Shown here in pieces: positions 7,625 to 42,536 of a stretch of 64,000 nt of DNA (position 1 is the stretch's first letter; every line of letters begins with the position of its first letter). Position numbers and translations under genes: made by a program. This DNA comes from Minisyncoccota bacterium (GTDB lineage: Bacteria > Patescibacteriota > Minisyncoccia > Phycocordibacterales > UBA6065): the NCBI GenBank assembly GCA_035438745.1, contig DAORIX010000002.1, forward strand, positions 1,830 to 65,829, in the 5' to 3' direction. Below the pieces are notes generated by a model that made no database searches, was not told the DNA's origin, and saw nothing but the letters and a program-made list of their open reading frames with translations.

Positions 7625-7879
7625 TTATACATTTCGTGCAAAACTTTTCTTGAGCCAAAAAGAAATGATCACTAAAATACCCCCGAGAATAAGCCCTGTA
7701 TAATGAAAATGATCTGAAGGTATACCAAACAAAACATCATAGAGACCTCCCCACAACACAAGTTCGTAAAAATTGCTTACAAAAAATATCCCCACAAGAG
7801 CAGAAATAAGTGCCACCCACCATGGCAAAAATAACAAGGAAACAATAATAGCGATGTTAACAGTGGTACGTGGACTCAT
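7625..7879 (-). CDS. Small polytopic membrane protein, possible minimal MreD
   Basis: 84 aa with 2-3 TM segments. Its position between mreC and mrdA is where mreD is expected. Confidence 0.4.
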   Translation of the reverse strand: MSPRTTVNIAIIVSLLFLPWWVALISALVGIFFVSNFYELVLWGGLYDVLFGIPSDHFHYTGLILGGILVIISFWLKKSFARNV

Positions 7880-16639: not shown

Positions 16640-16715
16640 GGCTTTTTGTTTGACCGCTGTGTACTTATCTGGTTGAGTATAAACAGCCACAACTTAGGGG
16701 TATACTTAAAAAGCT

Positions 16716-18596: not shown

Positions 18597-18638
18597 AACC
18601 TCCTTTACCTTTTCTGTATTACGTTTTACTATCAGTTC

Positions 18639-20658: not shown

Positions 20659-20663
20659 ATGAA

Positions 20664-21035
20664 TTAATCATTTTTCCTAAAACCTCGCAAAAGATTTTTC
20701 AATTTTAAACCACTTTTTCGGATGAAATCAATTCTTTTGTGCTTCTTTGAGCGCAAAGTTTCAATAAGCTCATCCTTCATGCCGTCAATCGCTGCATAGA
20801 GATCGTCACGTTCAACTTCTGCACGAATATCAAGCTGTTTACCATGCAAAGTCGCTTCTGCTTTAAAGATGTCTCCTGACCTGTGACGATTGGTTGTCTT
20901 TGCTATTTCAACATCTACAATCACCGAATCATCCTGTGGGTCCAAGTACCTATCAAGTGATGCTAATTTTTTGTCGAGATAATCAGAAATACCCGGAGTG
21001 AGCACAATATTAGTGACTTTTATAGTTTTTTTCAT
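20664..21035 (-). CDS. hpf: Ribosome hibernation-promoting factor / RaiA (short form)
   Basis: 123 aa with an N-terminus typical of YfiA/HPF (MKKTIKVTNIVLTPGISDYLDKKL). Confidence 0.75.
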   Translation of the reverse strand: MKKTIKVTNIVLTPGISDYLDKKLASLDRYLDPQDDSVIVDVEIAKTTNRHRSGDIFKAEATLHGKQLDIRAEVERDDLYAAIDGMKDELIETLRSKKHKRIDFIRKSGLKLKNLLRGFRKND

Positions 21036-26737: not shown

Positions 26738-27172
26738 CTATAAATTAGGTATTTTCAATATTTCTCTTACCCCTTTCCATTCCGGATCCCTTTCCATCCT
26801 ATAATCAAATTCTCTAGCCTGAGACCCACTTTCGATAATCTTGTTGAGCGTTGAAGAAATTGTTTGAGGGTTTGTAACATAGAAGAACAAACTCCTTATG
26901 CCGTTATGTGTAAATCGTCCGGCACGATACACCTCATCAACAGCTTTAAATTTGTGATATAGGTCGTCCTCCATATCATTCAGAATCTTATCTTCCATAT
27001 TCGATATTGAACCATTCTCAGAAACAAGAAGTTGGATATTAATACATAAAAACCAAGAAAGTTTTTCTTTAAATTTAGCTTTTAAATACCCTTCTGTAAG
27101 AATGAGATTCCATGGCAAATTATCCTTTTCTCCCTGATAAAGTTTGAACACATCCTGTTCAGTTTTTTTCAT
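26738..27172 (-). CDS. Candidate immunity protein for the RHS C-terminal toxin
   Basis: 144-aa cytoplasmic protein. Its start overlaps the RHS stop codon (ATGA). Position and size fit RHS toxin-immunity pairs. No recognizable domain. Confidence 0.5.
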   Translation of the reverse strand: MKKTEQDVFKLYQGEKDNLPWNLILTEGYLKAKFKEKLSWFLCINIQLLVSENGSISNMEDKILNDMEDDLYHKFKAVDEVYRAGRFTHNGIRSLFFYVTNPQTISSTLNKIIESGSQAREFDYRMERDPEWKGVREILKIPNL

Positions 27173-30100: not shown

Positions 30101-33100
30101 GCTCCGGACCGTGAATATTTTTCATCACAGAGAGATTATGTTCTATGACCTGCAATAGAGCCTCTCGAGGGTCTTCACGAAGGGTACGGACGTATTGTTT
30201 CTCCTCACCGGTAGATACATCTGTCTGCGTCCACTCTTGTCTAATGGTTCCACGCTCATCAGGCACAAGTATAGGAGGATTAAAGATGCGGAAACGCTCC
30301 ATGTCGACTGTACCATCAACACCAAACCCTATTCGTTTTCCTTTACTATCCCAAGCTCGAACAAAAACCTGAACACCACCCTCTATTGGCTCAACAGAAA
30401 CTATCTCAAATGTATAGTCCTTACGTTTCTCACGAACACCGCGAACAGCCTTTGCAATCTCCTCACCTTTAATGTTCGCACGTTTATAAGAACCCTTACC
30501 TTCAAGCAAAGCTCGGATCGAACCAGGCTCTGCAGGTGTAACGGAAAGTATTTTTTCAACAACTTTTGACTCAGTTCTCAAACGTGCTTCCGATGTACTA
30601 GCTGTGGTACTTGCTACCACAGGAACTATAAGAGGTTCAATTGGGACAATTGTTTTGTCATCAGAAACGACTTCATCTTGCGTCTCTACATCTGTTTCAA
30701 GTTCAGGTGGAGCGTCTTTAGGAATAAGCGCTTCCTCTGGAGTGACAGGCTCAGAAATCTCATTTGGAGAACTTTCATCAGAAGTTTTCTCTGTTTCTTG
30801 TGTAGAAACTTCGTCAGCAGAAACAGCGGGCTCGACTTGTGATGATTCAGGTGTTGGATTTGAAACATCTTCATTCGAAGGATTTTCTATCTCCTGAGCA
30901 TATACACTAGGAGCAAATAAAACTTGAGTAATTTCCTTGAGGCGTGATAATGCAAAATGAGACTTACTAGACGATTCACTTAGAGTCAAACCGCTTGTAT
31001 AAGTTGTGAGAATATTCACGAGGCGATACAGCGCATTAGAGTCATACGCATAATGTGTCTCGATACCATTAGCAAACTTTTTTGCCGCAAGTTTACCGTG
31101 TGGACCATAGTTAAGATCGGTGACGATCGGATTTCCTGCATGAGCAACAGAGTCGATTGTTCCAGCATTGTTATAGTTATAACCCTGAGTGACCCCGTTC
31201 GGAAGCGTAACCGTAAGCGGAGAGCCACGTCTATCGTAGGTATAACTCGTCGTATAAGTCTTATTCCCAATCTTTTTAGCTTCGCTATCAACATTACCTA
31301 AAATATCATAATCAAAAGTAGTCTGTGCAGAGGTACTCGACGCAACACAAAGACGACCGACTCCGTTGTCGCAACTATCATAGGTATATGTGTGCTCTGT
31401 GCCACTAGCTCCAGTATAATTTTCTGTGAGTTTGCGATTCAATGCGTCATAAGAATTTACTATGTTCTGAGCCTTAGGATCAGTACTAGATGCCAAATTT
31501 CCAAAAAGGTCATATGCATAGTTCCAAACCCCATAAGTGGAATCTCCTGATGCGTGTAGGTCTTGGGCGGTCGTGCGACGAGAAAGTCCATCATATGAGA
31601 ATGAACGAGTGTTACCAAGCGAATCGGTCATTCCCACTAAATTGTTGAGCGCATCGTGGGTATAACTCGTCGTATAGGTTTCTTCATCATTGTACTCAAC
31701 AACCGATGAAACATTACCGTAGGCATCTTTCTGTATGTCTTTTGGAACACCATTAGCGTCAGTTACCTTAACCTGCCAAGGGGTATACGCATACGTGGTG
31801 GTTCCAATAGATGTGGCAATCGATACAGGACGCTGCAAGGCATCATATGTGTAATTGGTATAAAGTGAAGATACATGAGTAGGAGAAGTACGCGCTGAAG
31901 TAGATGCAAAATACGGAAGGGACTCCTTCGCAAGTAAACCTGCACTACCGTAAACATAACTTTTAACTGAGTATCGATTGGTCATTTCTGCCTGAGAACG
32001 CTCCTGAATGACACGACCAAGACCATCACGATAAGTGTATACGTCTGTCGTGCTCGCGCTCGTTAAATATGTGCGAGTACGAGTGCTAGCTGGAAATGTA
32101 TCCGTATAAACATAATCTCGTAACACCTCAGTCAGAAGAGGGAATGAAGGATTAGTTTGGCGTTCCTCTTGTACTCGTCCAAGCGGTTCAAATACTGTTC
32201 TACGAACGGTACCGTTTTCATCTTCAACCCTTATTGGCTTGCCCACCATATAGTCATATTCATAATCAGTACCTTGGCTCAAAGCATTCGTAACAGTTTC
32301 TGGGTACAAATTAAATGAGTCATATGAATACGTCGTCGTATTGCTTCGGGGATCAGTCTCCGATGTGACTAATCCATATGAGTTATATGCTTTCGTCGTG
32401 CTTGAATAGTCACTTCCACTGATCCATTTTTCTTCTTTCGTTAAGTTGCCCTTGACCGCAGTACCAAGGGACTGAGTGTCGTAATACAAACGAGTAAGTG
32501 CAACAGATGTTCCTGAGTTGTCTTTGACCTCTTTCGTTGTAGGAAGAGTAAGATTTTTGCTTGTAGTTGCACTATAAGTAATAATCGTGGTACGTGTATC
32601 AGAACCAGTATTGCTATACGTTCCGTCAGACGATCCAGTCACTTCTCCCCTCTCAATTGACTGGAGAAGGTTGCCGGTTGTTGTTGAATAGGAGTATTCC
32701 GTCGCACGATCTTTGTGAGTTGATCCGCCTTCAAAATCCTGGACCGAGTCCGATGCAAGTCGTGTAAACCAATATGCGGGTGTAGGAGAAGATATAGTAC
32801 GACTTGGATTGAGCGCAATCACATTCTTGAGCATAGTTCCAGAGTTAGTACTCGAATATATGACGCTCTTCGCTCCAACGGCTCCGAGTCCCCCTCCGCT
32901 ATCCCAAGATTCTGTGTCTGAAGTCTGGATAAAAGCACCTGAGTTTACAGAATGGCTTCCTGCGGTTGATCCAAACACACCGACAAGCCATGCATTTGGA
33001 GTGTCGGTTGTGACTGTTGCTGTAACCGAAGTGCCTGAAATTCCACCCTCTGCATCGTACCAACCAAATGGATTTTCGGTATCAACACCTGAATACGAAA

Positions 33101-35873
33101 TTGCATGTGCTCCAAACCAGCCGTCTAACCCTCCTCGTGTCATCGTGAGGGTGTGAGTTCCCGTTGGAGGATTAAGTAAATACCACAAATTAACGTTTCG
33201 ATTGCTAGCCGCAGAAGCGCCAGCTCCAACCGGTGTCAGTGCAATACCATTATAAGTAACACCACTAACAAAGAGTCCGCCCTGAGAATCACCAATAACA
33301 AGGAGCATATTATCACTGCTACCTACCGTAAAACTATATGAATGAGACGAACCAGAAGCTACATTTGAAAACTGCGACGAGCCTCGAGCGATGTCAGTTG
33401 TACTGGTACTCGTCGTTGCACTTGTTATGTATTGGTCACTTGAATAAACATAGAATGATTTTTTGAGCGTTGTTGAGGCCATGCTCACAACATCTTCACG
33501 ATATTTTTTTCCAATGAGTGCAAATCCGTCAAGAAGCTCTCCTACGCTTGTCGAGGCCGTGTTGCCTTGATGGTAATAACTCTGTGTTGATCCGAGGCCA
33601 TCAAATCGATTGATTTTTGCAAACCCAGCAAATCGTCTATCTCTAGTGTTTGAAGGATTCAAATAAATTCTGCCACCCTCATACGTGTATGAGTAAGATT
33701 GTGAACCGCCAAAACCATCATTGTCTGTTAATTTTGTGACAACTAAAATTGAAAAAGGTAAGTCGGGATTCTGACTAGCCATTTGAGCCGAAAACTGATA
33801 TTCAATTTGAGTATTTCCTCCCGTACTTAAGCGACGGAATGTGAGCATGTCAGCCTTAGCTGTGCCACCCGAAGATACTGTGCTTTTTGTACTAGCGCTG
33901 TCGGGGATACCGTCTCCATTCCAATCAACGAGCTCGTTGTAATCTACACGTCCTGTCCATTGGCCTCCCGAAACCACCCCATTAAAGATATACTCTGGTA
34001 CCGTGAGAGATGATGTTGCGAATCCACCGCCCGTGTTTAGGTATACGTAATTGTAGCTTCCTGTTTGAATGTCTGTCACACCACTTGCCTTGGTTGAATA
34101 GGACGGCATATTGTATGACCTAATGTAGTCGAGGAGACCGTCACCATTCATATCTATGAATCGAATGCCTTTGTCCCAACCACCTGTCTGACGCACACCT
34201 GTGTTAATGGTCCATCTCGTATCAACAGAACCCCAACTAGATCCATTGTTAAGATAGAATTTGGTTGAACTTGCATCTGAGTACATCCAGTCGTCGAGGC
34301 CGTCTCCGTTAACGTCCACGAGTTGTGACATTGAAACGTCGGTTGCTGTGGTCGGCATTGCCGCAATAGGCGCAAAAGAACTTTTCACTCGCCAACCGTT
34401 CTCCAAACCACTATTGAGATAACTTCCATTAGCGGCACAGATTGTCGTTGTCGCCACATAATCAACAAGCCAGTCGCCGTTAAGATTTCCAAATAATCCC
34501 GTTGCAACACTCTCAGAACCATTCGCGCAACTAAAGAGTGGTAAACGAGATGGGGTTGCAGTGCTTGTCCAAGTGAAAGGAGCGGTGTTCTCGTAGTATC
34601 CTCGAGTAATAACACCACTTGAGTCACGATAGCTTCGTGCAATGTCTGCCTTACCATCCCCATTGAAATCAACGAGGCGGACACCGCGTTCTACGTATGG
34701 AAAATCATTTGATCCTCCGAGCCCAGAGTTGTCGTAGCTCCAAAATTCAGAAGAGACCGCCTGATTATATTGGGGAAAGTTGGGAAATTCATTCTCGTCT
34801 ACGATTCTGTGTGCGCTCGATGTTCCACTATTGCTCCAGAAGACTGCCTTATCAGGCAAACCATTACCATCCACATCGGCAACCATACGAGCACTGTTCC
34901 AAATCCGAGGATTGGTTGATGATGCGTATGTCGGTGTTGAAGTAGAGTATCCAAACGTAACAGCAGGCAAAGCGGCAGTATTACCGTCACTATCCCTTCC
35001 AGTTTCAATGGCTGAAATAAGAAGAGAGCGTGAACCATTGCTTCCACTTAAATAACCAAGAGTATACTTTCTTCTCCATTCATCATTTATGGATGCTTTT
35101 ACTTCTGTAAGACGCTTTGTTGTATTTACCCAAAATCCCGTTTCGTATGAAGTATAAACATCTGGACGTGTTTCGTAAGTGAAATCAACTTCAAATGGAC
35201 CGTCCGTTGTTCCGTTTCCGGTGTACGTAATTTTGGATGGGTAAATCTGATTACCGTCCTTTGTATATTCGAATTTTATGAAGTTGTCATTAGTATCTCG
35301 CACCTCCTCAAGCATCCAGCGATAAACATTATCAGGACTTGTCGTTGCCGACTGCCTAGACGCAGTGGTTGTACCGAAAGAGTATCGTGTGCCGCTTTTA
35401 TCAAATACGGTCCAAACGTTGTTTTGAAGACGGTAGGTAATAAAATTGCCATCCTCAAAGCGATGGCGATATCCTCCATTATTGTCCGATGGAACAAGTT
35501 CACCACCAAGAGATGAGGTAAAGTAGTTATCAATGTAGAGACGATCGGTTCCTATCTGATTCATGCGTGTGATAGACGGAATCGATAACTTCCAACCATA
35601 ACCATAAGGACTCTCACTTAAATCTTGACTGTTGTATGTAAGAGCAAGGTCTGGAGTAAGTCCCTTTCTTCCAGGTGGAACCTTAAACGAAATACTATCT
35701 GTGTATGCACCTTGATTTAAATCGACTCTCACTCTTCCAACACTAGCGCTAACAATATCTTCTCGCTCTTTTGCGTCCACAAGAGAGGGAGGAATAAGAC
35801 TGAGAACAAGATTACACAACACAAAAAGAACGATCGCTCGTCCACATCTGCGCAACGCTACAGTTGAGTACAT
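27174..35873 (-). CDS. Giant secreted RHS/YD-repeat polymorphic toxin, TcB-TcC (BC-fusion)-like
   Basis: 2899-aa uninterrupted ORF with a signal peptide and an SpvB/TcaC N-terminal motif (ISFKVPPGRKGLTPDLALTYNSQ). It has at least five FG-GAP-like calcium-binding repeats (VDVNGDGLPD, DFNGDGKAD, DVNGDGLDD, DMNGDGLLD, DWNGDGIPD). It has many YD repeats and a Glu/Pro/Ser-rich linker. It has a LamG/ConA-like jelly-roll (LTFSAWIKP ... ELWINGVSQG). The RHS core ends NPVTLKDPSGR at ~27723..27755. A unique 182-aa C-terminal domain follows. Confidence 0.85.
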   Translation of the reverse strand: MYSTVALRRCGRAIVLFVLCNLVLSLIPPSLVDAKEREDIVSASVGRVRVDLNQGAYTDSISFKVPPGRKGLTPDLALTYNSQDLSESPYGYGWKLSIPSITRMNQIGTDRLYIDNYFTSSLGGELVPSDNNGGYRHRFEDGNFITYRLQNNVWTVFDKSGTRYSFGTTTASRQSATTSPDNVYRWMLEEVRDTNDNFIKFEYTKDGNQIYPSKITYTGNGTTDGPFEVDFTYETRPDVYTSYETGFWVNTTKRLTEVKASINDEWRRKYTLGYLSGSNGSRSLLISAIETGRDSDGNTAALPAVTFGYSTSTPTYASSTNPRIWNSARMVADVDGNGLPDKAVFWSNSGTSSAHRIVDENEFPNFPQYNQAVSSEFWSYDNSGLGGSNDFPYVERGVRLVDFNGDGKADIARSYRDSSGVITRGYYENTAPFTWTSTATPSRLPLFSCANGSESVATGLFGNLNGDWLVDYVATTTICAANGSYLNSGLENGWRVKSSFAPIAAMPTTATDVSMSQLVDVNGDGLDDWMYSDASSTKFYLNNGSSWGSVDTRWTINTGVRQTGGWDKGIRFIDMNGDGLLDYIRSYNMPSYSTKASGVTDIQTGSYNYVYLNTGGGFATSSLTVPEYIFNGVVSGGQWTGRVDYNELVDWNGDGIPDSASTKSTVSSGGTAKADMLTFRRLSTGGNTQIEYQFSAQMASQNPDLPFSILVVTKLTDNDGFGGSQSYSYTYEGGRIYLNPSNTRDRRFAGFAKINRFDGLGSTQSYYHQGNTASTSVGELLDGFALIGKKYREDVVSMASTTLKKSFYVYSSDQYITSATTSTSTTDIARGSSQFSNVASGSSHSYSFTVGSSDNMLLVIGDSQGGLFVSGVTYNGIALTPVGAGASAASNRNVNLWYLLNPPTGTHTLTMTRGGLDGWFGAHAISYSGVDTENPFGWYDAEGGISGTSVTATVTTDTPNAWLVGVFGSTAGSHSVNSGAFIQTSDTESWDSGGGLGAVGAKSVIYSSTNSGTMLKNVIALNPSRTISSPTPAYWFTRLASDSVQDFEGGSTHKDRATEYSYSTTTGNLLQSIERGEVTGSSDGTYSNTGSDTRTTIITYSATTSKNLTLPTTKEVKDNSGTSVALTRLYYDTQSLGTAVKGNLTKEEKWISGSDYSSTTKAYNSYGLVTSETDPRSNTTTYSYDSFNLYPETVTNALSQGTDYEYDYMVGKPIRVEDENGTVRRTVFEPLGRVQEERQTNPSFPLLTEVLRDYVYTDTFPASTRTRTYLTSASTTDVYTYRDGLGRVIQERSQAEMTNRYSVKSYVYGSAGLLAKESLPYFASTSARTSPTHVSSLYTNYTYDALQRPVSIATSIGTTTYAYTPWQVKVTDANGVPKDIQKDAYGNVSSVVEYNDEETYTTSYTHDALNNLVGMTDSLGNTRSFSYDGLSRRTTAQDLHASGDSTYGVWNYAYDLFGNLASSTDPKAQNIVNSYDALNRKLTENYTGASGTEHTYTYDSCDNGVGRLCVASSTSAQTTFDYDILGNVDSEAKKIGNKTYTTSYTYDRRGSPLTVTLPNGVTQGYNYNNAGTIDSVAHAGNPIVTDLNYGPHGKLAAKKFANGIETHYAYDSNALYRLVNILTTYTSGLTLSESSSKSHFALSRLKEITQVLFAPSVYAQEIENPSNEDVSNPTPESSQVEPAVSADEVSTQETEKTSDESSPNEISEPVTPEEALIPKDAPPELETDVETQDEVVSDDKTIVPIEPLIVPVVASTTASTSEARLRTESKVVEKILSVTPAEPGSIRALLEGKGSYKRANIKGEEIAKAVRGVREKRKDYTFEIVSVEPIEGGVQVFVRAWDSKGKRIGFGVDGTVDMERFRIFNPPILVPDERGTIRQEWTQTDVSTGEEKQYVRTLREDPREALLQVIEHNLSVMKNIHGPERIIKGKKGKTVSTFYSAAGQASPVDGMAYWNGSGDWASAHDSNGVISCDTCAGGEVGIRVADYYFQNLVRNIFGFNTSLIDSDMILSATLSVTMHSGMGGGTNPGDFKVVVDKHDGPASSNAIVNNDYNIANWDSVRQSNTEIAINTISTRQYYNFPFNSTGLGNINKSGNTWLGLRIGLDLDNTSPGWRDHRSYNAETVFADTTGTTEDPKLVIEHTGLPPIEDPFPNANGTRLQDILYYYDSVGNITSIIEAATSSLARKVNYAYDDLSRLVSASTTATSSVSFRELYSYNKIGNLKEKILSNQVEDNFRSTDLELSSSQFWSIADASQTGLDMSTVLTFSAWIKPESFDNGTIQTLVHKGDASQESYKLYMYNAGGTHMMFFRPSSSGAYEETLAWTLGSTIPTGAWTHVVFTWTGSGSVGELWINGVSQGTQTGSVTSLYNSARKLAIGAMLETDSVSTYYVDGLMDDVRIWSRKLTSTEIGNFYSDPYNFSNGSSLQGWWKLDSNGQDSSGNANHLTNNNGATFSTDVAVSQSAPSSLYLYSGSGYLNPHAPSEYFDGTASTTYTYDNNGNLTSSIFSSATTTYTWDFLNRLVSATTTGTTTAYTYDHTMARMSETVGSKVHHYPNKFYSAEYTDSTYQTGTSTSYIWAGDTLIAYVERPIVSGSPSGTAKTYYVHPDHLESTNVVTNEAGDVILEKDYMPYGSMRVEDGTDSNRGFIGQFENEGNNLSYLNARYYEGARGQFLSQDPVFWEVGLTNDGMGVLTSPQLQNSYAYAGDNPVTLKDPSGRIIDTIADIGFIAYDLYRVGEAMATGGDVRTELNYLSLDVAGAVIPGVTGVGVVARTTKVVNKVDNVAEKSFEIYAKMKDDIIYTGRTSGKSIPEKNVIKRDRTHHMNEQGYGPARLIHSTNSYNTVRGLEQIGQDVANSVGRSGNAIRGISPSNKNAANYLNISQKEVETFVNNFKRITGIK

Positions 35874-36011
35874 AAAAAATAGAGATTAAAAAATATAAAC
35901 TCAATTCACCCTACGTTCAACACTAAAACTATACCACTTGAGCTTATAAGAAGCATAAGGGTTTATCCACCTCATATACTTTCATCATTTAACGAAGCCC
36001 AGTTTGGTTAT

Positions 36012-36401
36012 TTAAAGTGCGGTATAAAAGCCTGAAGGAGTAGATACGTAGCTTGGTATCTGGAAGCGTACTTTATCTAAGGTATATCTCACCCTGTTGA
36101 ACCGAATAATCTCACCAGAAGTTTCCGCCACACAATAATCATCCAGCGTAAAATTTTGATAAATCACGTTAAGGTTTTCAGACGTTGCTATTGAATGTCC
36201 GGAATTTGCATTAGGAATACGAGTATTATTTTCAGACACAAATGCAAGAAAAATGGTTGTTCGTGCTTGTAAAACAAGTTCTGATTCGTTTGGGGTAAGA
36301 GGCTGGAAGTTATTATTTGAAAATTGCACAACTCCAATACCATGAACATTTCCATGATGAGTAACTTGTGTGGCAAAAATCCTCTCGATCTTTTTTCTCA
36401 A
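36012..36401 (-). CDS. Hypothetical protein (129 aa)
   Basis: ORF of reasonable length in an AT-rich accessory region. No recognizable motif. Confidence 0.4.
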   Translation of the reverse strand: MRKKIERIFATQVTHHGNVHGIGVVQFSNNNFQPLTPNESELVLQARTTIFLAFVSENNTRIPNANSGHSIATSENLNVIYQNFTLDDYCVAETSGEIIRFNRVRYTLDKVRFQIPSYVSTPSGFYTAL

Positions 36402-36490
36402 AATTGGGTCTTTTATGTGAACATCTTCACACGTATCCCCTAACTACATAATCAGATGAATAAATACTAGCATTTGTTACACTACTAGAC

Positions 36491-37252
36491 ATGCTTGCTT
36501 TCATAGATGAGACTGGGGACCATAATTTAAACATGAAGACTGTTGATAATAACTACAATATTTTTGTATTGTCTCTGGTTCTCATTAGAAAAAAGGACTA
36601 TAAGAAGATAGACATGGGGTTTAAAAAGATAAAAAAAGATATATTTGGAGACGAGAACTTTATAATCCACACATGGGAATTAACACATCCAACGCACAGG
36701 AAATCAGACAAACGTAATGGAATAATGCGTGTCCATGAAAAAAGAGAAGAATTTTATAAAAAAATGAATGACTTTATCGAGTCGTCGTTAATAAAGACGT
36801 GCTTCACGGTAGTTAGAAAACTACATTTTGCTGGTAAATATGTATTTCCGTCGGATCCATATGAATTATCTTTTGAAAATCACCTAAACAGAATTTTACA
36901 CTACTCTAGTGGTGATGATATAAGTATTTATGCGGAATCTAGAGATGATGCTTTGGATAAGAGTCTTTTAGCAGAATATACTAAATATTCAATTAAAGGG
37001 GTATGTTTCCACGACTCAGAAAAAATGAAGAGAATAAAGGAATTCAATATAAAAAGCAAAAAAGAAAATATCACAGGACTTCAGATAGCAGATTTACTAG
37101 CAAGTCCAGTAGCAAGACATTTTTTAAATATTAAACCTAGACCAATAGGAAACGAAATACCTTATTCATTAGTAAGAAAAAAACTAGCAGGAAATATAAA
37201 GTTATCCATAACAATTATTCCAGATGATGCAGAGATTAACCTATTGAAATGA
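36491..37252 (+). CDS. DUF3800-family protein
   Basis: 253 aa. The N-terminal FIDETGD and later GLQIADLLA resemble the conserved IDESG and LQxAD motifs of DUF3800. Confidence 0.55.
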   Translation: MLAFIDETGDHNLNMKTVDNNYNIFVLSLVLIRKKDYKKIDMGFKKIKKDIFGDENFIIHTWELTHPTHRKSDKRNGIMRVHEKREEFYKKMNDFIESSLIKTCFTVVRKLHFAGKYVFPSDPYELSFENHLNRILHYSSGDDISIYAESRDDALDKSLLAEYTKYSIKGVCFHDSEKMKRIKEFNIKSKKENITGLQIADLLASPVARHFLNIKPRPIGNEIPYSLVRKKLAGNIKLSITIIPDDAEINLLK

Positions 37253-37605
37253 GAAGAGCGCCCCACAAAGGCGGTGCGCTCTTCTACTACATAAATGGTA
37301 TCATAAGGTATCTAATCCAGATAACTAGTTATCCCCTTAAAATATGGCTACAAACGAAGACAAATTTCTCTCTACTTTACTAGGTGCTTTATTGCCTGTT
37401 TCAAGATAGATACAAAAGTTTTCTTATTCATTCGCTTTACTTTAATTACTTTAGTATAACTATACCAGTATTAATAAAAACTCTTCTAAAACTGCCTACA
37501 GCGGTTTTTATTTTTCCTCTAATTATACTCATGAAGGGAGACGTGTGTATGTGCAGTCCCTAACAAAAAATATTTTTGTTAATCTTTTATTGAAATCATA
37601 TACAC

Positions 37606-38271
37606 TTACATCTGAATGAGCTCTAACTGTAACTTTGCTTTTAAAACCTCAAACTCTGCAATCTTTTTATCTAAAAGAACTTGAGGGGGTCTGATTGTAG
37701 GTGATTTCTGCCAATTTTCATTACAAGAAGATGGATTACTAGTGCATATTTCTTTATCGTAATCGCCCGCACGGACCCTACTGATTTCAAGATCCATGCT
37801 CGCAATTGCGGCAAGCGTTGCCTTTTTCTGCGCCTCAGCTTGGGTTAAAGACGCCTCCAACTGTTTGATCCTTGCCTGTAGCTTTTCTAAATCAATAAGA
37901 CATTGATTTGGTGTTCCTTGGAGTTCTTTAATCTTTAATTTAAGAGAGTTATTTTCATCAATTACTGATTGGTCCGGCTTAATTACAATCTTTTCAACAA
38001 TCCGGTCCACTGGCACTGTAACTGTTTTGATTACCGCCCTTTCGATAACCGTTGATTCCGGTACTATCACAGAAGATGAAGTAGCGGTTGTTTCAGGAAC
38101 TTCATTATGTTCATTAACACTTCTCTTAAGATCACCTGCATCAACCCTAAGCTCTGGAATATTTTTTATTTCGTTTTGCACAAACCAAGTACGTGGATTC
38201 CACCATTCTGCATGAACAATAGACGGAAGGAGAATCGCCCCCAGAGATAGCACTATTATTTTATTTTTCAT
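37606..38271 (-). CDS. Secreted coiled-coil protein
   Basis: 221 aa with a signal peptide, a Val/Ile/Pro-rich repeat region and a long coiled coil (LKLKIKELQ ... LEASLTQAEAQKKATLAAIASMDLEISRVRAG). Confidence 0.55.
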   Translation of the reverse strand: MKNKIIVLSLGAILLPSIVHAEWWNPRTWFVQNEIKNIPELRVDAGDLKRSVNEHNEVPETTATSSSVIVPESTVIERAVIKTVTVPVDRIVEKIVIKPDQSVIDENNSLKLKIKELQGTPNQCLIDLEKLQARIKQLEASLTQAEAQKKATLAAIASMDLEISRVRAGDYDKEICTSNPSSCNENWQKSPTIRPPQVLLDKKIAEFEVLKAKLQLELIQM

Positions 38272-38635
38272 AGTAAAAGTTTTAATAAACCTTACCTGTG
38301 TATTGCATACAAAAAACCTGCCACAGGTAGAGGCCTAAGCCTCTCATACCGGTTTCCCGATATGGCGAGTTAAGCGACCCTATGACAGGCTCTTTATGCT
38401 TAACTCGACTTCTGACCATGCCACTGATGACTCAGTAGTTTAGGTACTTTTTCATATTCAATTGTCTCCTTCACTCTACCATCACTTCCCTCAAATACAA
38501 AAGAGTTTAAAAAAATGGGAGGGGGGGCAAAAATGCTAGCAAATGCAATCATGAAAATGATAGCATTTCGAAAACTTATTAGCCCACCTAAACTTACTTA
38601 AAAATATATGTATAATTGACCCATACAGAGCTGAA

Positions 38636-39346
38636 ATGAAACCTCAAGAAAGAGCTGATTATGAGATATGGTGGGTACTACAAGAGATTAAAAAAGAGTG
38701 TTTGATTTTAAGATCAGACCATTTTGTTGTTAGAAAAGACACGCCTTTTGAAATAACTCATACCCATACAGACACGGCCCCCACACATAAAACACAAACA
38801 AAGATTTTATATAGACTTCATGAACTAGGGACAGTTATTATTGACGTATTGCCTATAGGTGTCGAAACAGAGATCGTCTTTGTCGATGGTATCCCTTCTT
38901 TAGCGAAAAAAGAAAAACAATCATACAATCCTGAATTATCGATAAAGGTAATTCAACCAAAGTTTGAACAAACATATAGTGAGTATGCAGGTTTATTGTC
39001 AACAACTGTAGATAATAAAAGTTTAAAAGGTAGAAAAATCATATATGATGAGACAAAGCAAATTATTTTTATCGATGCAATACCCTGTCCGCTCGTGCCC
39101 TCACGTAACGAAAGCGATCTTGCAAAAGTAATGTTTAAAAAAGAGATTGGACAATTTGTAGACTGGTCAATCCTCTACGAAGAAATAACTGGTATCGAAG
39201 CTCTAGGAACAGATAAAAAAAATCAGAAAAGACAAAAAATGCTTAGGGATACCAAAGATAGATTAAACAAACATATAAAACATGTGGCTAACACCGAAGA
39301 CAATCTTTTAAGTTGGAAAAATAAAAGTATTTCGAGAAACTACTAA
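38636..39346 (+). CDS. Hypothetical protein (236 aa)
   Basis: AT-rich ORF inside the putative element. No recognizable domain. Confidence 0.5.
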   Translation: MKPQERADYEIWWVLQEIKKECLILRSDHFVVRKDTPFEITHTHTDTAPTHKTQTKILYRLHELGTVIIDVLPIGVETEIVFVDGIPSLAKKEKQSYNPELSIKVIQPKFEQTYSEYAGLLSTTVDNKSLKGRKIIYDETKQIIFIDAIPCPLVPSRNESDLAKVMFKKEIGQFVDWSILYEEITGIEALGTDKKNQKRQKMLRDTKDRLNKHIKHVANTEDNLLSWKNKSISRNY

Positions 39347-39437
39347 CAACAATCAGAAGTGATTCGCAGGTGAGTCACCACTCACACTGCTAAAGTCGAG
39401 GCACGAAAGCTTCGGCTTTTGTTTTAGTTAGTTATTT

Positions 39438-39617
39438 ATGTCAGAAAAACAAATCAAAACAAATGTCGAAAAAGACTGCCAGATTATAGAGCTATTAGAG
39501 TTCTTTGAACTTTTAGCGCGGTTTGATTATGAGGATAAACAAAAATCAGAAGCCAAGACAGACTCTTTAGAATCAGCTCCTAAAGAGTCTGTCTTGGGGT
39601 CGGATATAAAAAAATAA
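39438..39617 (+). CDS. Small acidic protein (59 aa), not in the ORF track; contains a 15-bp perfect inverted repeat in its 3' end
   Basis: ATG at 39438 and TAA at 39615. Translates to MSEKQIKTNVEKDCQIIELLEFFELLARFDYEDKQKSEAKTDSLESAPKESVLGSDIKK. Ends 11 nt before the next gene. Confidence 0.3.
   Translation: MSEKQIKTNVEKDCQIIELLEFFELLARFDYEDKQKSEAKTDSLESAPKESVLGSDIKK
39555..39595. repeat. Perfect 15-bp inverted repeat aagacagactcttta(N11)taaagagtctgtctt
   Basis: Read directly from the sequence. Candidate protein-binding site (recombinase or regulator) or RNA hairpin. Confidence 0.6.
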
Positions 39618-39628
39618 TTACAATAATC

Positions 39629-40135
39629 ATGGCAAAAAAAAGAATAATTAACACTCGGTTCTGGGTAGATGAATACATATCAAGGCTCGATCCTATAGAA
39701 AAACTGCTATTTCTATATTTTTTAACAAATCCCTCTACAGAGATATGTGGAATATATGAAATACCCTTGAAAACTGTCGCCACCGATACCGGTATCGACA
39801 AAGATATGGTAGAAAAAATAATTAAAAGGTTTAGTAAAGATAATAAAATTTACTACAAGAAAGGTTGGATTGCGATAAAAAATTTTACGAAGCACCAAAC
39901 CCTAAATCCAAGCGTAAAGACAGGAATAGGAATATGTGTTTCTAAGGCCCCTAAATTCATGTTAAAGAAGGTCAATCTGCCCCCAGACTGTGTACACTCT
40001 CCAGGCAACATCACGCATGTTAATCCAAACCCAAATCCTAAAAATAAATCTAAAATGGACACAGACACCAAGCGTCATTTAATACTTAGAAAAGAAATTG
40101 ATGAAATAGTTAACCAAAAAAGAACAATTCCTTAA
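39629..40135 (+). CDS. Winged-helix DNA-binding protein, phage replisome-organizer/DnaD-N-terminal-like (tentative)
   Basis: 168 aa. The N-terminus (RFWVDEYISRLDPIEKLLFLYFLTNPSTEICGIYEIPLKTVATDTGIDKDMVEKIIKRF) resembles phage replication-initiation / DnaD-like winged-helix domains. Confidence 0.45.
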   Translation: MAKKRIINTRFWVDEYISRLDPIEKLLFLYFLTNPSTEICGIYEIPLKTVATDTGIDKDMVEKIIKRFSKDNKIYYKKGWIAIKNFTKHQTLNPSVKTGIGICVSKAPKFMLKKVNLPPDCVHSPGNITHVNPNPNPKNKSKMDTDTKRHLILRKEIDEIVNQKRTIP

Positions 40136-40156
40136 ATATTTGATAAAATTACATCA

Positions 40157-41761
40157 ATGAGAAATAAAGCTATTACTTATTGTAGAGTATCCTCTAAAGA
40201 ACAAGAAGAAACTGGTTATTCTCTTGATGCTCAAGAAAAACTATTAAAAGAGTATGCTGAAAAAAAAGAATGTGAGGTCACTAAGGTGTTTCGTATCTCT
40301 GAATCCGCAAGTGGAAAACAAATCAGGAAAACATTTAACGAAATGCTCGCTTACATGGAGAAAAACCACGTACCTGTTTTACTCTGTGAAAAAATAGATC
40401 GCCTTACCAGAAACCTAAAGGATGCCGCGACTGTCAGTGACTGGTTACAAGCTGATCCTATACGAGAAATTCACTTTGTTAAAGAAAACTTTGTAGTAAA
40501 CAAAAATACTCGTGCTCATGAAAATCTTGTTTGGGACATGAAGGTTGCCATTGCGCGCTTCTATACAAACAATCTATCAGAAGAGGTTAAAAAGGGGCAA
40601 GCAGAGAAAATTTCACAAGGCGGCCTCCCTACTAAACCACCTATTGGATACAAGACTATTGGAGAAAAAGGCCACAAGGTCCATGTTTTAGATCCGGACA
40701 AAGCACCTTTTGTAAAAAGAATGTTTGATCTTTACGCTACTGGGAACTACTCAATGACCAGCCTCAGAGAAGAGTTACATACGGAGGGTTTTCGAATGAG
40801 ATCCGGAAAAAAGGTTATGAAAAGTAAATTTGAGCAAATGCTTAAAGACCCTTTCTATTACGGTGCTTTGAGATGGAATGATGTCATATATCACAATGGA
40901 ACACATGAACCGATTATCTCAAAAGAAACGTTTGATAAAGTTCAAGATATAAGAACAAAGAAAAAAGCACCTAGTTACTCAAGACATTCTTTTCAGTTTA
41001 GAAAGATGTTCAAGTGTGGAGAATGTGGTGGAAGCGTCACCGCTGAAATACAAAAAAACATCGTCTATTACCATTGTAATCATTATCGACCTTGCTCTCA
41101 AAAGAAATACACTCCTGAGGAAAAGCTTGAAGAGAAATTATTTGGTGTATTCAAGTTTTTTGAAACCATTACAGTAGAAGAAGCAGAAGAAATAAAGGCC
41201 AAAATCAAGCTAAACCACTGCCAGGAAATCGAATATAAGGAAAACACCATTAAAGCCCTGAACGAACGGTATAACACGCTACAAAGACGGTTAGACAACC
41301 TTTATAACGACAAGCTCGATGAGAAAATCACACGCGAGTTCTGGGAAAAGAAGCAAGCTGAAATAACAAATGAGCAAAAAGCTATTCAGGACCAGCTTTC
41401 TCGCCTCAAAGGCGAAGAAGCGAAGTATTTTGAAATCTGGCTCAACATCCTAGATCTCGCTCGTCGAGCCGGCGAGATCTACAAGAAACGATCACCAGAG
41501 GAGAGGCGTTTACTTTTGAGTCATATTTTTTCGAACCTGGTCCTAAAAGACGAAACAGTGACTCCTACTCTCAAAGCTCCAGTCCAGAAACTTGCTGAAC
41601 GTGTCCAACAACGACTAGACGCCGAAAAGACTTTCGAACCAGATAAAAACGGCTCTATAAAAACACAAAAAGGTGCTCTCGCACCCCTTGTGTCCAACTA
41701 TGCTCCGGGAGAAGGGATCGAACCTTCGACCAATCGCTTACGCTTACCCTCTCATTACTGA
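40157..41761 (+). CDS. Large serine recombinase (resolvase catalytic domain, recombinase domain, zinc ribbon and coiled coil)
   Basis: 534 aa with N-terminal ITYCRVSSKEQEETGYSLDAQ (catalytic Ser). It has a recombinase domain, a zinc ribbon (CGECGGS ... YYHCNHYRPC) and a C-terminal coiled coil. The last ~20 codons overlap the tRNA-Asn 3' exon on the opposite strand. Confidence 0.85.
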   Translation: MRNKAITYCRVSSKEQEETGYSLDAQEKLLKEYAEKKECEVTKVFRISESASGKQIRKTFNEMLAYMEKNHVPVLLCEKIDRLTRNLKDAATVSDWLQADPIREIHFVKENFVVNKNTRAHENLVWDMKVAIARFYTNNLSEEVKKGQAEKISQGGLPTKPPIGYKTIGEKGHKVHVLDPDKAPFVKRMFDLYATGNYSMTSLREELHTEGFRMRSGKKVMKSKFEQMLKDPFYYGALRWNDVIYHNGTHEPIISKETFDKVQDIRTKKKAPSYSRHSFQFRKMFKCGECGGSVTAEIQKNIVYYHCNHYRPCSQKKYTPEEKLEEKLFGVFKFFETITVEEAEEIKAKIKLNHCQEIEYKENTIKALNERYNTLQRRLDNLYNDKLDEKITREFWEKKQAEITNEQKAIQDQLSRLKGEEAKYFEIWLNILDLARRAGEIYKKRSPEERRLLLSHIFSNLVLKDETVTPTLKAPVQKLAERVQQRLDAEKTFEPDKNGSIKTQKGALAPLVSNYAPGEGIEPSTNRLRLPSHY

Positions 41762-42319
41762 AAGGAGCGGACTATATCATTCTCGTGATCCACCTCTGGA
41801 CCTTACGAGACGAGGGGCTTCCCATCTGCCCCGTGGCAGACAGTACTCCTAAAAAGGATAGTCTCTACACCCTCCCTTCAACCTCACTCAAGATTTACTT
41901 TGAGTTTTCGTCAAAGGGCTCGGCTCGGGATTGCCCACACATGTGGGGTTCCCCGAATTCACCTCGTTTTCGACCAAGCTTTCACTTGGAAGCTGCATGA
42001 TGCCCGCACCAACCTCTCTGTGGCAATTCGCGCACAAAAGAATACATTTATCGAGCTCTGCTTTTACCTTATCCCATGAACGCGTATAACCCTTATCACC
42101 AATCCCGAATCCTTTTTCTTCTTTTTTGATATGGTGAAGTTCTAACGCGCCTTGATATTTATTGTATCCACAGATCTGACATTTGCCTCCTTTGTACTCA
42201 ATAGCCAAAGATTTGATTTTTTTGCGTCTTTTAGAAACCGCACGAATCAAAGCTTCGCGTCGATCGGCATATTTTCTTCTGTCTGGCATTACTTTAATAA
42301 TACCACCAGAAAATCGTTT
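41741..42319 (-). mobile_element. Group I intron (~579 nt) carrying an HNH homing-endonuclease ORF
   Basis: The 3' part of the intron contains the paired P7-type elements AGAGACUA ... GAUAUAGUCCGCUCC. These are close to the Tetrahymena CAGACUA ... AUAUAGUCGGACC core. The intron ends in G before the 3' exon and follows an exon U. Confidence 0.7.
41888..42289 (-). CDS. HNH homing endonuclease encoded within the group I intron
   Basis: 133 aa with HNH motifs CQICGYNKYQGALELHHI ... LLCANCHR. Confidence 0.8.
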   Translation of the reverse strand: MPDRRKYADRREALIRAVSKRRKKIKSLAIEYKGGKCQICGYNKYQGALELHHIKKEEKGFGIGDKGYTRSWDKVKAELDKCILLCANCHREVGAGIMQLPSESLVENEVNSGNPTCVGNPEPSPLTKTQSKS

Positions 42320-42536
42320 ACAGGCGACTGCTCTACCGCTGAGCTATCCCGGAATGTTTTATGTGCTCTATCTGGCTATCAGTTTACTCATAGCCAGAAC
42401 AAAACCTTAAAACACAGAGTACTAAACTTATGAATCCTACGCCTCCTTCCGAGCTTCTACCTATACATAACCGGAATGTTCTGTATCATAGCAAATTATA
42501 GACATGAAGCAATAAAGCCACCGCCCTACCCTCACC

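What the first reader, a model, noticed from the sequence alone, without database searches (positions are those of the whole stretch)
36012..41761. AT-rich putative integrated element with a large serine recombinase, DUF3800 and replication-like genes next to the intron-bearing tRNA
Composition drops sharply relative to the flanking housekeeping and RHS genes. The cargo includes a DUF3800 protein, a family recurrently seen in phage-defence / abortive-infection neighbourhoods. It also includes a secreted coiled-coil protein, a winged-helix DnaD-like protein preceded by a small acidic ORF with a perfect 15-bp inverted repeat, and a 534-aa large serine recombinase. The recombinase reading frame terminates inside the tRNA-Asn 3' exon. 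This could be a small integrative plasmid or satellite-like element that uses tRNA-Asn as its att site. It could carry an uncharacterised defence cargo.
Basis: inference. Interest (0 to 1): 0.55.

Follow-up and report, generated by a model that had tools for sequence, protein, structure and literature searches.

The report
Serine-recombinase mobile element at tRNA-Asn
This AT-rich 5.7-kb stretch is a small mobile element that a large serine recombinase inserted at the 3' end of a tRNA-Asn gene in a Paceibacterota (CPR) bacterium. It belongs to a large, apparently undescribed family of such elements that also carries the orphan LOOT RNA.

Summary
Window ~36.05-41.70 kb has the lowest G+C in the window (0.360 against 0.423 +/- 0.018). 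It encodes a DUF3800 protein, a signal-peptide coiled-coil protein, a DnaD-like protein and a 59-aa acidic ORF with an 18-bp perfect inverted repeat. It also encodes an intact 534-aa large serine recombinase (LSR). The LSR frame runs antisense through the whole 3' exon of an intron-split tRNA-Asn(GUU).

Comparison with 80 other genomes shows this LSR is a family hallmark. In at least 68 of 88 loci its 3' end overlaps the 3' end of an opposite-strand tRNA, mostly Asn. Upstream gene content is variable and often includes restriction-modification or other defence genes.

Three conserved RNA-level features emerged:
- the Rfam LOOT RNA, always on the element side and followed by a membrane or secreted protein gene;
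- a tRNA terminator embedded in the recombinase's last codons.

Best reading: an integrative, plasmid- or satellite-like element with DUF3800 as cargo. The left end is only approximately placed. No empty site or circular form was found. A defence role for DUF3800 remains untested.

The parts
36051..41705 (.). Proposed extent of the integrated element. The right end is firm. The left end is approximate and lies somewhere in 35874-36055.
   Evidence: G+C is 0.360, the lowest of all same-length windows. The right junction is at the tRNA 3' end, 'TGCTC', 41701-41705. The left candidate 'GCTT|GGTATCTGGAAGCGTACT' at 36051 resembles the left ends of L024, L026, L033 and L048. However, the 9-mer is not enriched overall.
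36012..36401 (-). orf129: orphan ORF that straddles the proposed left junction. It may not be a gene.
   Evidence: No hit in Pfam, PHROG, NCBIfam or PADLOC. No tblastn match in any locus searched.
36491..37252 (+). DUF3800 protein (RNase H-like fold family). Cargo gene.
   Evidence: Pfam PF12686, E 1.1e-13. The N-terminal FIDETGD and C-terminal LQIAD (QxxD) motifs can be read in the sequence. It is absent from all 80+ sibling loci. Homologues are solitary genes elsewhere.
37606..38271 (-). 221-aa secreted or membrane-anchored protein, translated downstream of LOOT.
   Evidence: It has an N-terminal hydrophobic signal-like segment. Its position after LOOT is conserved: 34 of 35 LOOT-downstream ORFs have a TM or signal segment, against 36% of control ORFs.
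38316..38328 (-). Terminator-like hairpin plus U-run directly after LOOT.
   Evidence: Found by the scan. The tail 'ACCYGTGGYGGGCTTTTTGT' is conserved in most LOOT loci.
38329..38446 (-). LOOT RNA (Rfam RF03000).
   Evidence: 87 bits against a gathering score of 46.4. Own covariance models find LOOT in 35 of 84 sources, always on the element side of the LSR. 92% of cells are paired and 33 of 35 pairs show compensatory changes.
38636..39346 (+). 236-aa protein with a C-terminal OmpR/PhoB-type winged-helix DNA-binding domain. Probable regulator.
   Evidence: The C-terminal ~110 aa are conserved in 339 cluster representatives. The AF2 model has pLDDT 85. Top Foldseek PDB hits are the RpaA, PhoB, VicR and ToxR effector domains, probability 0.97-1.0, TM 0.6-0.67, but E only 0.014-0.1. 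The family occurs in only 6 loci.
39438..39617 (+). 59-aa acidic ORF (motif FFELLARFDYEDKQK). Conserved companion of the LSR module. Either a leader peptide or a small protein.
   Evidence: tblastn finds homologues in 25 loci, 0.4-1.0 kb upstream of the LSR. A related 67-aa family occurs in 24 more loci.
39553..39597 (+). Conserved mRNA hairpin: 18-bp perfect stem, loop AAUCAGCUC.
   Evidence: A hairpin is present in 24 of 26 loci, median z -4.7. Across 24 pairs, 89% of cells are paired, 19 pairs show compensatory changes, and 0 of 500 shuffles reach this. G-U pairs on the + strand point to sense RNA. In 12 of 24 loci the loop is complementary to the first codons of the next gene, with covariation. 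The window itself lacks this partner.
39629..40135 (+). DnaD-like replication organiser or initiator candidate.
   Evidence: PHROG 1701 'DnaD-like helicase loader', E 3.7e-20. PHROG 6251 'replisome organizer', E 3.9e-18. The only homologue among the loci is in L021, at 52% identity.
40157..41761 (+). Large serine recombinase (integrase), intact.
   Evidence: Pfam Resolvase E 2.2e-25, Recombinase E 6.2e-19, Zn_ribbon_recom E 1.2e-06. PHROG 95 'integrase', E 1.5e-86. The catalytic R10 and S12 fall in invariant alignment columns. 2015 homologues have E <= 1e-10.
41668..41689 (-). Intrinsic terminator for the tRNA-Asn gene, embedded in the LSR's last codons.
   Evidence: Found by the scan. A hairpin plus T-run on the tRNA strand lies within 60 nt of the tRNA end in 48 of 64 loci, against 14 of 320 control positions inside the LSR ORF.
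41703..41740 (-). tRNA-Asn(GUU) 3' exon. It contains or abuts the attachment core (TGCTC, 41701-41705).
   Evidence: The tRNA 3' end is conserved at the LSR end in at least 68 of 88 loci.
41741..42319 (-). Group I intron in the anticodon loop, carrying an HNH endonuclease ORF (41888-42289). Host side; not part of the element.
   Evidence: Rfam RF00028, 51.7 bits against a gathering score of 50. HNH Pfam E 7.4e-06. PHROG HNH E 6e-31. HNH homologues sit at the same position in 10 loci.
42320..42353 (-). tRNA-Asn 5' exon (host).
   Evidence: In-silico splicing gives a canonical tRNA-Asn(gtt) in ARAGORN.

Best explanation
Window ~36.05-41.70 kb is a small (~5.7 kb) integrative mobile element. Its large serine recombinase inserted it at the extreme 3' end of the tRNA-Asn(GUU) gene of a Paceibacterota bacterium.

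Shown:
- The recombinase gene sits at the tRNA-proximal edge and reads across the junction.
- The tRNA stays intact.
- The element supplies the tRNA's transcription terminator from within the recombinase's last codons.

Inferred:
- After excision the element replicates like a plasmid, using its DnaD-like initiator.
- The upstream 59-aa ORF and its long, covarying mRNA hairpin control that initiator. In half of the siblings the hairpin loop pairs with the initiator's start region.
- A winged-helix protein regulates the element.
- LOOT RNA, with its terminator, precedes and probably controls a secreted or membrane protein.
- DUF3800 occupies the variable cargo slot. In siblings this slot holds restriction-modification and other defence genes.

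The element has no virion or transfer genes. Horizontal spread would therefore need a helper (satellite-like) or natural DNA uptake.
For: - Composition is the outlier of the window.
- The LSR is intact, with all three domains and the catalytic Ser.
- LSR-tRNA overlap: ARAGORN calls an opposite-strand tRNA overlapped by the LSR stop in 45 loci. A tRNA 3'-half motif sits at the LSR end in 68 of 88 sources. Targets are mostly Asn, with Gln, Leu, Val, Asp and Ser in sub-branches.
- In L001, L003 and L004 the tRNA side is a conserved housekeeping cluster, while the LSR side differs in every genome.
- Direct repeats of the tRNA 3' end lie 6.7-9.9 kb upstream in L026, L027, L033 and L034. L024 holds tandem elements.
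- Cargo in siblings: type II R-M in L001 and L027, an AAA_15/AbiL-like ATPase in L026, and PDC-S11 in L033.
- Replication module: DnaD-like in the window, HTH_36/O-like initiators in L029-type loci, and Prim-Pol helicases in 7 loci.
- Hairpin covariation. LOOT association. Embedded terminator.
- A 95%-identical copy of 38441-39417 exists in an unrelated sequencing run.
Against: - No copy of the tRNA 3' end and no clear attL exists in the window. The left-end motif match is weak.
- No empty site, circular contig or attP was found.
- The window's hairpin loop has no complementary partner at the DnaD-like gene.
- The LSR-tRNA adjacency is so widespread that part of it could be old and vertically inherited.
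- This copy may be immobilised. The tRNA plus element lie 21 kb from, and inverted relative to, the housekeeping cluster that flanks the tRNA in relatives.
- The replication function of the 168-aa protein rests on PHROG profile matches only.
Confidence: 0.75

Rival explanations
1. It is a decayed, immobilised remnant of such an element. The recombinase end is intact, but the distal attachment site has been lost to deletion or rearrangement, so it can no longer excise.
For: No repeat of the tRNA 3' end occurs anywhere in the 64-kb window. At 5.7 kb it is smaller than siblings with defined ends, which are 6.7-9.9 kb. The locus is rearranged relative to relatives. orf129 is an orphan that straddles the candidate junction.
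Against: Serine recombinases need only a 2-bp shared core, so a missing long repeat is expected. Most siblings also lack one. All element ORFs are open and the LSR catalytic residues are intact. A candidate left end resembling sibling left ends exists at 36051. A 95%-identical partial copy is found in another sample.
Confidence: 0.25
2. It is a phage satellite, or a remnant of a filamentous or tailed prophage, rather than a plasmid-like element. It would rely on a helper virus for packaging.
For: Distant members of the same LSR family sit in inovirus-like contigs with a Zot ATPase and a rolling-circle Rep (L006/L082, L007, L047, L055, L070). A close N-terminal relative (69% identity) abuts TerS and TerL genes in L184. 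The LOOT-type sibling L001 encodes a small-terminase-like protein without TerL (phrog_4102, E 2.9e-20). Variable defence cargo is typical of satellites (own knowledge of PICI and P4-like elements).
Against: The window element has no Zot, Rep, TerS, TerL or capsid homologue by Pfam, PHROG or a custom Zot HMM. No prophage-like genes were seen among the upstream ORFs checked at 15.1-24.9 kb; the rest of the window was not scanned.
Confidence: 0.15
3. It is not mobile DNA. The recombinase next to tRNA-Asn would be a conserved host gene of Patescibacteria, and the AT-rich genes beside it ordinary lineage-specific genes.
For: LSR-tRNA-Asn adjacency is seen across many Patescibacteria classes, with 43-70% protein identity.
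Against: - Gene content next to the LSR differs in every genome.
- Repeats flank some copies, and one locus has tandem copies.
- Sub-branches target other tRNAs.
- Family members occur in virus-like contigs and in bins labelled archaeal or proteobacterial.
- The composition shift is strong.
Confidence: 0.04

Closest known systems
Large serine recombinase integrases of phages and integrative elements (phiC31, Bxb1, A118/LI integrase, SCCmec Ccr, XisF)
   Same: Same three-domain architecture: Resolvase, Recombinase and zinc ribbon. PHROG 'integrase' E 1.5e-86. Weak NCBIfam similarity to XisF and CcrA/B/C. The gene sits at the element edge next to the attachment site.
   Different: NCBIfam scores are far below every equivalog cut-off, for example XisF 111.6 bits against 375. 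The target is the 3' end of a tRNA gene, which is typical of tyrosine integrases and, to my knowledge, unusual for LSRs. The ORF reads across the junction into the tRNA. A terminator for the tRNA is encoded within it.
tRNA-targeting integrative plasmids and AICEs (pSAM2, SLP1) and integrative mobilizable elements (own knowledge)
   Same: A small element with an integrase and a replication module, inserted at a tRNA 3' end. The tRNA is kept functional and the cargo is variable.
   Different: The integrase is a serine, not a tyrosine, recombinase. There is no FtsK-like transfer gene, relaxase or oriT. The host is a CPR bacterium. The element carries the LOOT RNA.
Phage satellites with defence cargo (PICI, P4-like) (own knowledge)
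   Same: Small size. Integrase, regulator and replication module. A variable slot that holds defence systems in siblings. One sibling has a TerS-like gene.
   Different: No packaging or capsid-remodelling gene in the window copy. No helper phage is known. No primase-helicase in this copy.
LOOT RNA motif (Rfam RF03000; from the Weinberg et al. 2017 candidate-RNA survey, PMC5737381)
   Same: Full-length match at 87 bits, with strong covariation in 35 copies.
   Different: The main text of PMC5737381 does not discuss LOOT and its supplements were not readable. From my own recollection, unverified, Rfam files LOOT as an sRNA of unknown function from unclassified metagenomic sequence. Here every copy lies inside an LSR element, is followed by a terminator-like tail, and then by a membrane or secreted protein gene.
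Leader-peptide, pseudoknot and antisense control of rep translation in IncB/IncI-alpha/IncL-M plasmids (own knowledge)
   Same: A small upstream ORF, a long hairpin whose loop pairs with the start region of the replication-initiator gene, and covariation of loop and target.
   Different: No sequence relationship. No antisense RNA has been demonstrated. The window copy lacks the loop partner. The upstream ORF is longer (59-76 aa) and conserved as protein.

Membership tests
Large serine recombinase (integrase) family | N-terminal resolvase catalytic domain with the Ser nucleophile | tested here: met
   PF00239, E 2.2e-25, residues 5-156. R10, V11 and S12 are invariant in a 28-sequence alignment.
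Large serine recombinase (integrase) family | Recombinase domain plus zinc-ribbon domain C-terminal to the catalytic domain | tested here: met
   PF07508, E 6.2e-19. PF13408, E 1.2e-06, 29.2 bits against a cut-off of 25.3.
Large serine recombinase (integrase) family | Unidirectional attP x attB recombination with a 2-bp crossover | not testable with these tools
   There is only indirect junction evidence. Sibling left ends start right after 'GCTC' (L024, L026, L048), or after a 15-17-nt copy of the tRNA end (L026, L027, L033, L034).
tRNA-integrated mobile element | Integrase gene adjacent to the 3' end of an intact tRNA gene | tested here: met
   The LSR ORF overlaps the entire 3' exon. The spliced tRNA is canonical. 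The same arrangement holds in at least 68 of 88 loci.
tRNA-integrated mobile element | Direct repeat of the tRNA 3' end at the distal boundary | tested here: not met
   None in the window at up to 3 mismatches, except chance-level hits inside the priA ORF (17724; identified) and at 24310. The feature is met in 4 siblings.
tRNA-integrated mobile element | Related genomes with an empty site | tested here: inconclusive
   Two metagenome scans and the viral scans returned nothing for this lineage. Family-level variability of the LSR side is clear.
Known anti-phage defence systems (PADLOC-DB v2) | A protein matching a defence-system model | tested here: not met
   No hit has E < 0.003 for any window protein. 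The three weak hits are coiled-coil or HNH noise. DUF3800 gave no hit.
DUF3800 (PF12686) | Pfam match above the gathering score, with the N-terminal DE and C-terminal QxxD motifs | tested here: met
   52.6 bits against 21. FIDETGD and LQIAD can be read in the translation. The motif definition comes from PMC7736814.
Inovirus (filamentous prophage) | Zot/pI morphogenesis ATPase and a rolling-circle Rep | tested here: not met
   Absent from the window by Pfam, PHROG and a custom Zot HMM. Present only in the distant LSR relatives L006/L082, L007, L047, L055 and L070.
LOOT RNA (RF03000) | Covariance-model score above Rfam's gathering threshold over the full model | tested here: met
   87 bits against 46.4, model positions 1-121.
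DnaD-like replication organiser | Profile match to the DnaD N-terminal winged helix | tested here: inconclusive
   PHROG 1701, E 3.7e-20, and PHROG 6251, E 3.9e-18, over residues 1-106. No Pfam or NCBIfam hit.

The most novel reading that the evidence does not exclude
The window copy is one member of a pan-Patescibacteria family of serine-recombinase satellites or integrative plasmids, which act as the main carriers of defence cargo in these tiny genomes. LOOT RNA would be the family's own riboregulator, controlling a surface or exclusion protein. The orf59 hairpin would be a new translational switch for the replication initiator. DUF3800 would be a nuclease cargo working against competing mobile DNA.
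Probability: 0.3. Interest if true: 0.75.

Novelty: new variant of a known kind. Interest (0 to 1): 0.58.

Why it matters
Very few mobile elements of CPR/Patescibacteria are characterised, and these organisms are hard to manipulate genetically.

- **A possible genetic tool.** This family offers a conserved, probably still active serine integrase with a predictable target, the 3' end of tRNA-Asn. That makes it a natural candidate for building an integration tool.
- **Context for an orphan RNA.** LOOT gets a concrete genomic setting: inside these elements, ahead of a membrane or secreted protein gene. Its function therefore becomes testable.
- **A new covarying RNA element.** The hairpin in front of the replication gene had not, as far as I could find, been described.
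- **A compact host-element arrangement.** The integrase ORF crosses the junction and also encodes the host tRNA's terminator.
- **A route for defence genes.** Sibling elements carry restriction-modification and other defence genes, so the family may be a main path by which such genes move among CPR bacteria.

Tried and rejected
- **Distal copy of the tRNA 3' end in the window.** Three searches gave only chance-level hits. The hit at 17724 looked like sibling junctions, but it lies inside the priA coding region, so I rejected it.
- **Left-end motif.** A regex built from the left ends of L024, L026 and L033 hits the window at 36051-36055. The shorter 9-mer is not enriched on the element side: 10 hits per 0.65 Mb against 20 per 1.75 Mb. 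The left end therefore stays approximate.
- **Empty site or circular form.**
  - The metagenome scan with the RHS N-terminus found nothing.
  - The metagenome scan with a 32-mer shared with L088 found nothing.
  - The viral scan with a 22-mer found nothing.
  - The viral scan with the hairpin-loop pattern gave 90 hits, none of which encodes the LSR, so they are chance matches.
  - No contig has terminal overlaps.
  - The orf236 alignment was not searchable, and orf236 alone found no viral relative.
- **DUF3800-associated RNA motifs.** None was found beside DUF3800 in the window or beside three homologues.
- **orf236 by sequence.** No Pfam hit in any of 32 family members and no PDB sequence hit. 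Only the fold comparison was informative.
- **orf236 as the LOOT partner.** Rejected, because the family occurs in only 6 loci.
- **TerS in L024 and L026.** I had suspected this by eye from their first genes, but neither Pfam nor PHROG supports it.
- **Inverted repeats at the presumed inversion breakpoints.** None found.
- **LOOT literature.** The main text of the Weinberg 2017 paper does not discuss it, and the supplements were not held.

Full report
**1. What is at the coordinates**

G+C falls to 0.34-0.38 between 36 and 41 kb, against 0.40-0.47 on either side. For 36055-41700 the value is 0.360. The 471 other windows of equal length have mean 0.423, sd 0.018 and minimum 0.386.

Protein identifications:
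- The 253-aa protein is DUF3800 by Pfam (E 1.1e-13).
- The 534-aa protein has the Resolvase, Recombinase and Zn_ribbon_recom domains. It also matches the PHROG 'integrase' family, E 1.5e-86.
- The 168-aa protein matches PHROG 'DnaD-like helicase loader' (E 3.7e-20) and 'replisome organizer' (E 3.9e-18). It has no Pfam hit.
- The 221-aa protein has a signal-like hydrophobic N-terminus.
- The inverted repeat in the 59-aa acidic ORF has 18-bp perfect arms (39553-39570 / 39580-39597).

ARAGORN finds no tRNA in the window.

Reading the sequence and splicing it in silico gives a canonical tRNA-Asn(GTT):
- 5' exon: 42353-42320;
- intron: 42319-41741, 579 nt, with an HNH ORF;
- 3' exon: 41740-41703.

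The recombinase frame covers the entire 3' exon on the opposite strand. It stops at 41759-41761, which is 21 nt inside the intron.

**2. The recombinase is the hallmark of a large family of tRNA-targeting elements**

The protein has 2015 homologues with E <= 1e-10. The nearest, apart from itself, are about 70% identical and come almost all from Paceibacterota and other Patescibacteria.

In three genomes fetched through homologues (L001, L003, L004), the recombinase's stop codon lies inside the 3' end of an opposite-strand tRNA-Asn. Beyond the tRNA lies a conserved S30AE-fmt-def-priA cluster. On the recombinase side the genes differ completely between genomes.

A scan of one genome per species found 256 relatives, of which 80 loci were fetched.
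- ARAGORN calls an opposite-strand tRNA overlapped by the recombinase stop, by 12-141 nt, in 45 loci.
- Most loci without a call still carry the tRNA 3' half (TGCTCC...GGATCGAACC) at that position. These are intron-split tRNAs or contig ends.
- In total, 68 of 88 sources show the junction.
- Asn(GTT) dominates. Sub-branches use Gln, Leu, Val, Asp or Ser.

The conserved C-terminal 'LLR(G)' of the protein family is simply the antisense translation of the tRNA acceptor stem.

**3. Boundaries**

Four siblings carry an exact or near-exact 15-17-nt copy of the tRNA 3' end, 6.7-9.9 kb upstream: L026, L027, L033 and L034.

L024 holds two elements in tandem. The inner junction reads '...AACAT TGCTC | GGTATTGTGGACGACTTTCGAAC'. 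The same left-end sequence follows 'GCTC' in L026 and L048. The crossover therefore lies within the last ~16 nt of the tRNA gene. Its exact position is unresolved.

The window has no second copy of the tRNA end. This is not unexpected for a serine recombinase, and most siblings lack one too.

A sequence resembling the sibling left ends, 'GCTT|GGTATCTGGAAGCGTACT', lies at 36051, where the composition shift begins. The short motif is not statistically enriched. I therefore place the left end only within 35874-36055. orf129 straddles that point and has no homologue anywhere.

**4. Conserved RNA-level features**

(a) *A terminator for the tRNA inside the recombinase gene.* On the tRNA strand, a hairpin followed by a T-run lies within 60 nt of the tRNA end, inside the recombinase's last codons. 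In the window it is at 41668-41689. The feature is present in 48 of 64 loci, against 14 of 320 control positions inside the same ORFs. The stems differ between loci, as can be seen in the listing. The element thus brings a terminator for the tRNA it abuts.

- The 59-aa ORF has homologues in 25 loci just upstream of the recombinase module. A related 67-aa family occurs in 24 more.
- Its 3' half folds into a long hairpin in 24 of 26 loci, median z -4.7.
- On a 15-sequence ungapped alignment, 24 pairs are 89% paired against 71% in shuffles. Nineteen pairs show changes on both sides, 0 of 500 shuffles reach the observed values, and slid controls pair at 33-51%.
- G-U pairs on the + strand argue for a structure in the sense RNA.
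- The loop (UCAGCUC) is conserved. In 12 of 24 loci it is complementary over 7-12 nt to the first codons of the next gene, and it covaries with them: GAGCUGA, GAGUUGA in L018, GAGGUGA in L026 and GGGAUGGA in L013.
- That next gene is a replication-initiator type: HTH_36/DnaD_N and PHROG O-like in L029, and DnaD-like in the window.

This resembles the leader-peptide and pseudoknot control of rep translation in IncB/IncI-alpha plasmids. That comparison rests on my own knowledge and is an analogy only. The window and its nearest relative L021 keep the hairpin and loop but lack the partner sequence.

(c) *LOOT RNA.*
- Covariance models built here find LOOT in 35 of 84 sources. It is always on the element side of the recombinase, 0.8-8 kb away, and in 29 of 35 cases on the opposite strand.
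- Structure support is strong: 92% paired, and 33 of 35 pairs show compensatory changes.
- LOOT is followed by a conserved terminator-like tail. Within about 0-140 nt there is then an ORF with a signal peptide or transmembrane segment in 34 of 35 cases, against 36% of control ORFs.
- These proteins are mostly not homologous to each other. Those in the window, L026 and L054 share a 'WWNP..W' motif after the signal peptide.

**5. Other genes of the window element**

The 236-aa protein has a C-terminal ~110-aa domain conserved in 339 cluster representatives. An AlphaFold model has pLDDT 85. It matches the OmpR/PhoB/VicR/ToxR DNA-binding winged helices best, at probability 0.97-1.0 and TM 0.6-0.67, though with weak E-values of 0.014-0.1. 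Sequence profiles give nothing. The family is present in only 6 of the loci, always upstream of the recombinase.

DUF3800 is absent from every sibling. Its nearest homologues, at 52-60% identity and also patescibacterial, are solitary genes among housekeeping genes. Published work describes DUF3800 in three ways:
- as an RNase H-like fold;
- as the effector of type VII retrons (PMC7736814);
- as a partner of a Cas12a2 sub-branch that is also linked to ncRNA motifs (PMC10910872; PMC5737381).

PADLOC gives no hit for any window protein, and no DUF3800-type RNA motif lies nearby.

**6. What kind of element**

Siblings with defined ends carry defence genes in the variable slot:
- an AlwI-like type II restriction-modification system in L027 (REase_II E 2.5e-122) and in L001;
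- an AAA_15 ATPase of the NsnB/AriA/AbiL type in L026;
- PDC-S11 in L033.

Replication modules vary: DnaD-like, HTH_36/O-like, or Prim-Pol with a helicase.

More distant members of the recombinase family (43-50% identity) sit in inovirus-like contigs with a Zot ATPase and a rolling-circle Rep. This agrees with the report of CPR inoviruses and serine recombinases in PMC6813254. A relative that is 69% identical over its N-terminus abuts TerS and TerL genes in L184. L001 has a TerS-like gene but no TerL.

The integration module is therefore shared by several types of mobile element. The window copy has no virion, packaging or transfer gene. I read it as an integrative plasmid-like or satellite-like element.

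**7. Limits**

No empty site, attP or circular form was found. Mobility of this particular copy is inferred, not shown.

The element and its tRNA are also displaced. In relatives, the S30AE-fmt-def-priA-EPSP cluster lies directly beside the tRNA. In the window it lies at 15.1-21.0 kb, in an orientation that implies an inversion of roughly 21.0-42.35 kb. No repeats mark the breakpoints.

**8. Novelty**

tRNA-targeted integrative elements and large serine integrases are both well known. Within the library I could search, I found no description of this family, of its tRNA-3'-end targeting by a serine recombinase in Patescibacteria, of LOOT's context, or of the hairpin. I rate it a new variant of a known kind.

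Noticed in passing
window 41703-42353 (-): tRNA-Asn(GUU) is split after anticodon position 35 by a 579-nt group I intron that encodes an HNH endonuclease. Homologous HNH ORFs occupy the same place next to the recombinase in 10 other loci (L021, L029, L038, L039, L048, L058, L061, L068, L078, L084). Many more tRNA-Asn genes in these lineages go uncalled by ARAGORN.
   Followed up: partly
window 15104-21035 versus 41703-42353: The EPSP-priA-def-fmt-(PPIase)-S30AE cluster lies directly beside tRNA-Asn in L001, L003 and L004. In the window it is 21 kb away. Its orientation implies an inversion of about 21.0-42.35 kb, carrying the tRNA, the element and the RHS region. No inverted repeats were found at the presumed breakpoints.
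   Followed up: partly
window 37606-38271 (-); L026 5658-6905 (-); L054 ORF after LOOT (7579-7699): Three LOOT-downstream proteins share a 'WWNP(R/F)(T/S)W' motif immediately after the predicted signal-peptide cleavage site. This may be a sorting or anchoring signal.
   Followed up: no
L006/L082, L007, L047, L055, L070; L184: Relatives of the same serine recombinase are carried by inovirus-like elements (Zot ATPase plus rolling-circle Rep) and by a contig with TerS and TerL. The integration module is therefore shared among different kinds of mobile elements in CPR bacteria.
   Followed up: partly
L024 1286-11610: Two recombinase-bearing elements sit in tandem at one tRNA-Asn. Their 3' ends share 19 nt (TAAATACAAAACATTGCTC). 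The inner junction gives the best clue to the crossover position.
   Followed up: partly
L026 3299-3500; L033 1790-2000: A conserved segment of about 200 nt follows the tRNA-end repeat in both loci, beginning GGTATCTCCCTCGACT and containing an A/T palindrome. Its nature is unknown. It could be a remnant of an older element or a structured RNA.
   Followed up: no
alignment A1, C-terminal region (e.g. P0012, P0014, P0022, P0025, P0042, P0070): Longer recombinase variants (552-576 aa) carry an extra ~35-aa insert with 'NNFRTSKK'. At DNA level this resembles the element left-end or junction motif (TTGCTCGG...TTTCGAAC). It may be a fossil of an earlier junction read into the ORF.
   Followed up: no
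window 15104-16639 (+); L003 16376-17917: The EPSP-synthase-family (PF00275) protein carries an N-terminal XRE-type HTH domain, both in the window and in a relative.
   Followed up: no
window 27174-35873 (-) and 54337-63828 (-): Two giant ORFs of 2899 and 3163 aa. The first is RHS/YD-repeat-like with a C-terminal toxin-like tip, followed by a small 144-aa ORF (26738-27172). It directly abuts the element's distal end.
   Followed up: no
L088 (Logan SRR25018324, 975 bp): A fragment 95.3% identical to window 38441-39417 (start of LOOT to the end of orf236) exists in an independent sequencing run. A close relative of this element is therefore present elsewhere.
   Followed up: partly
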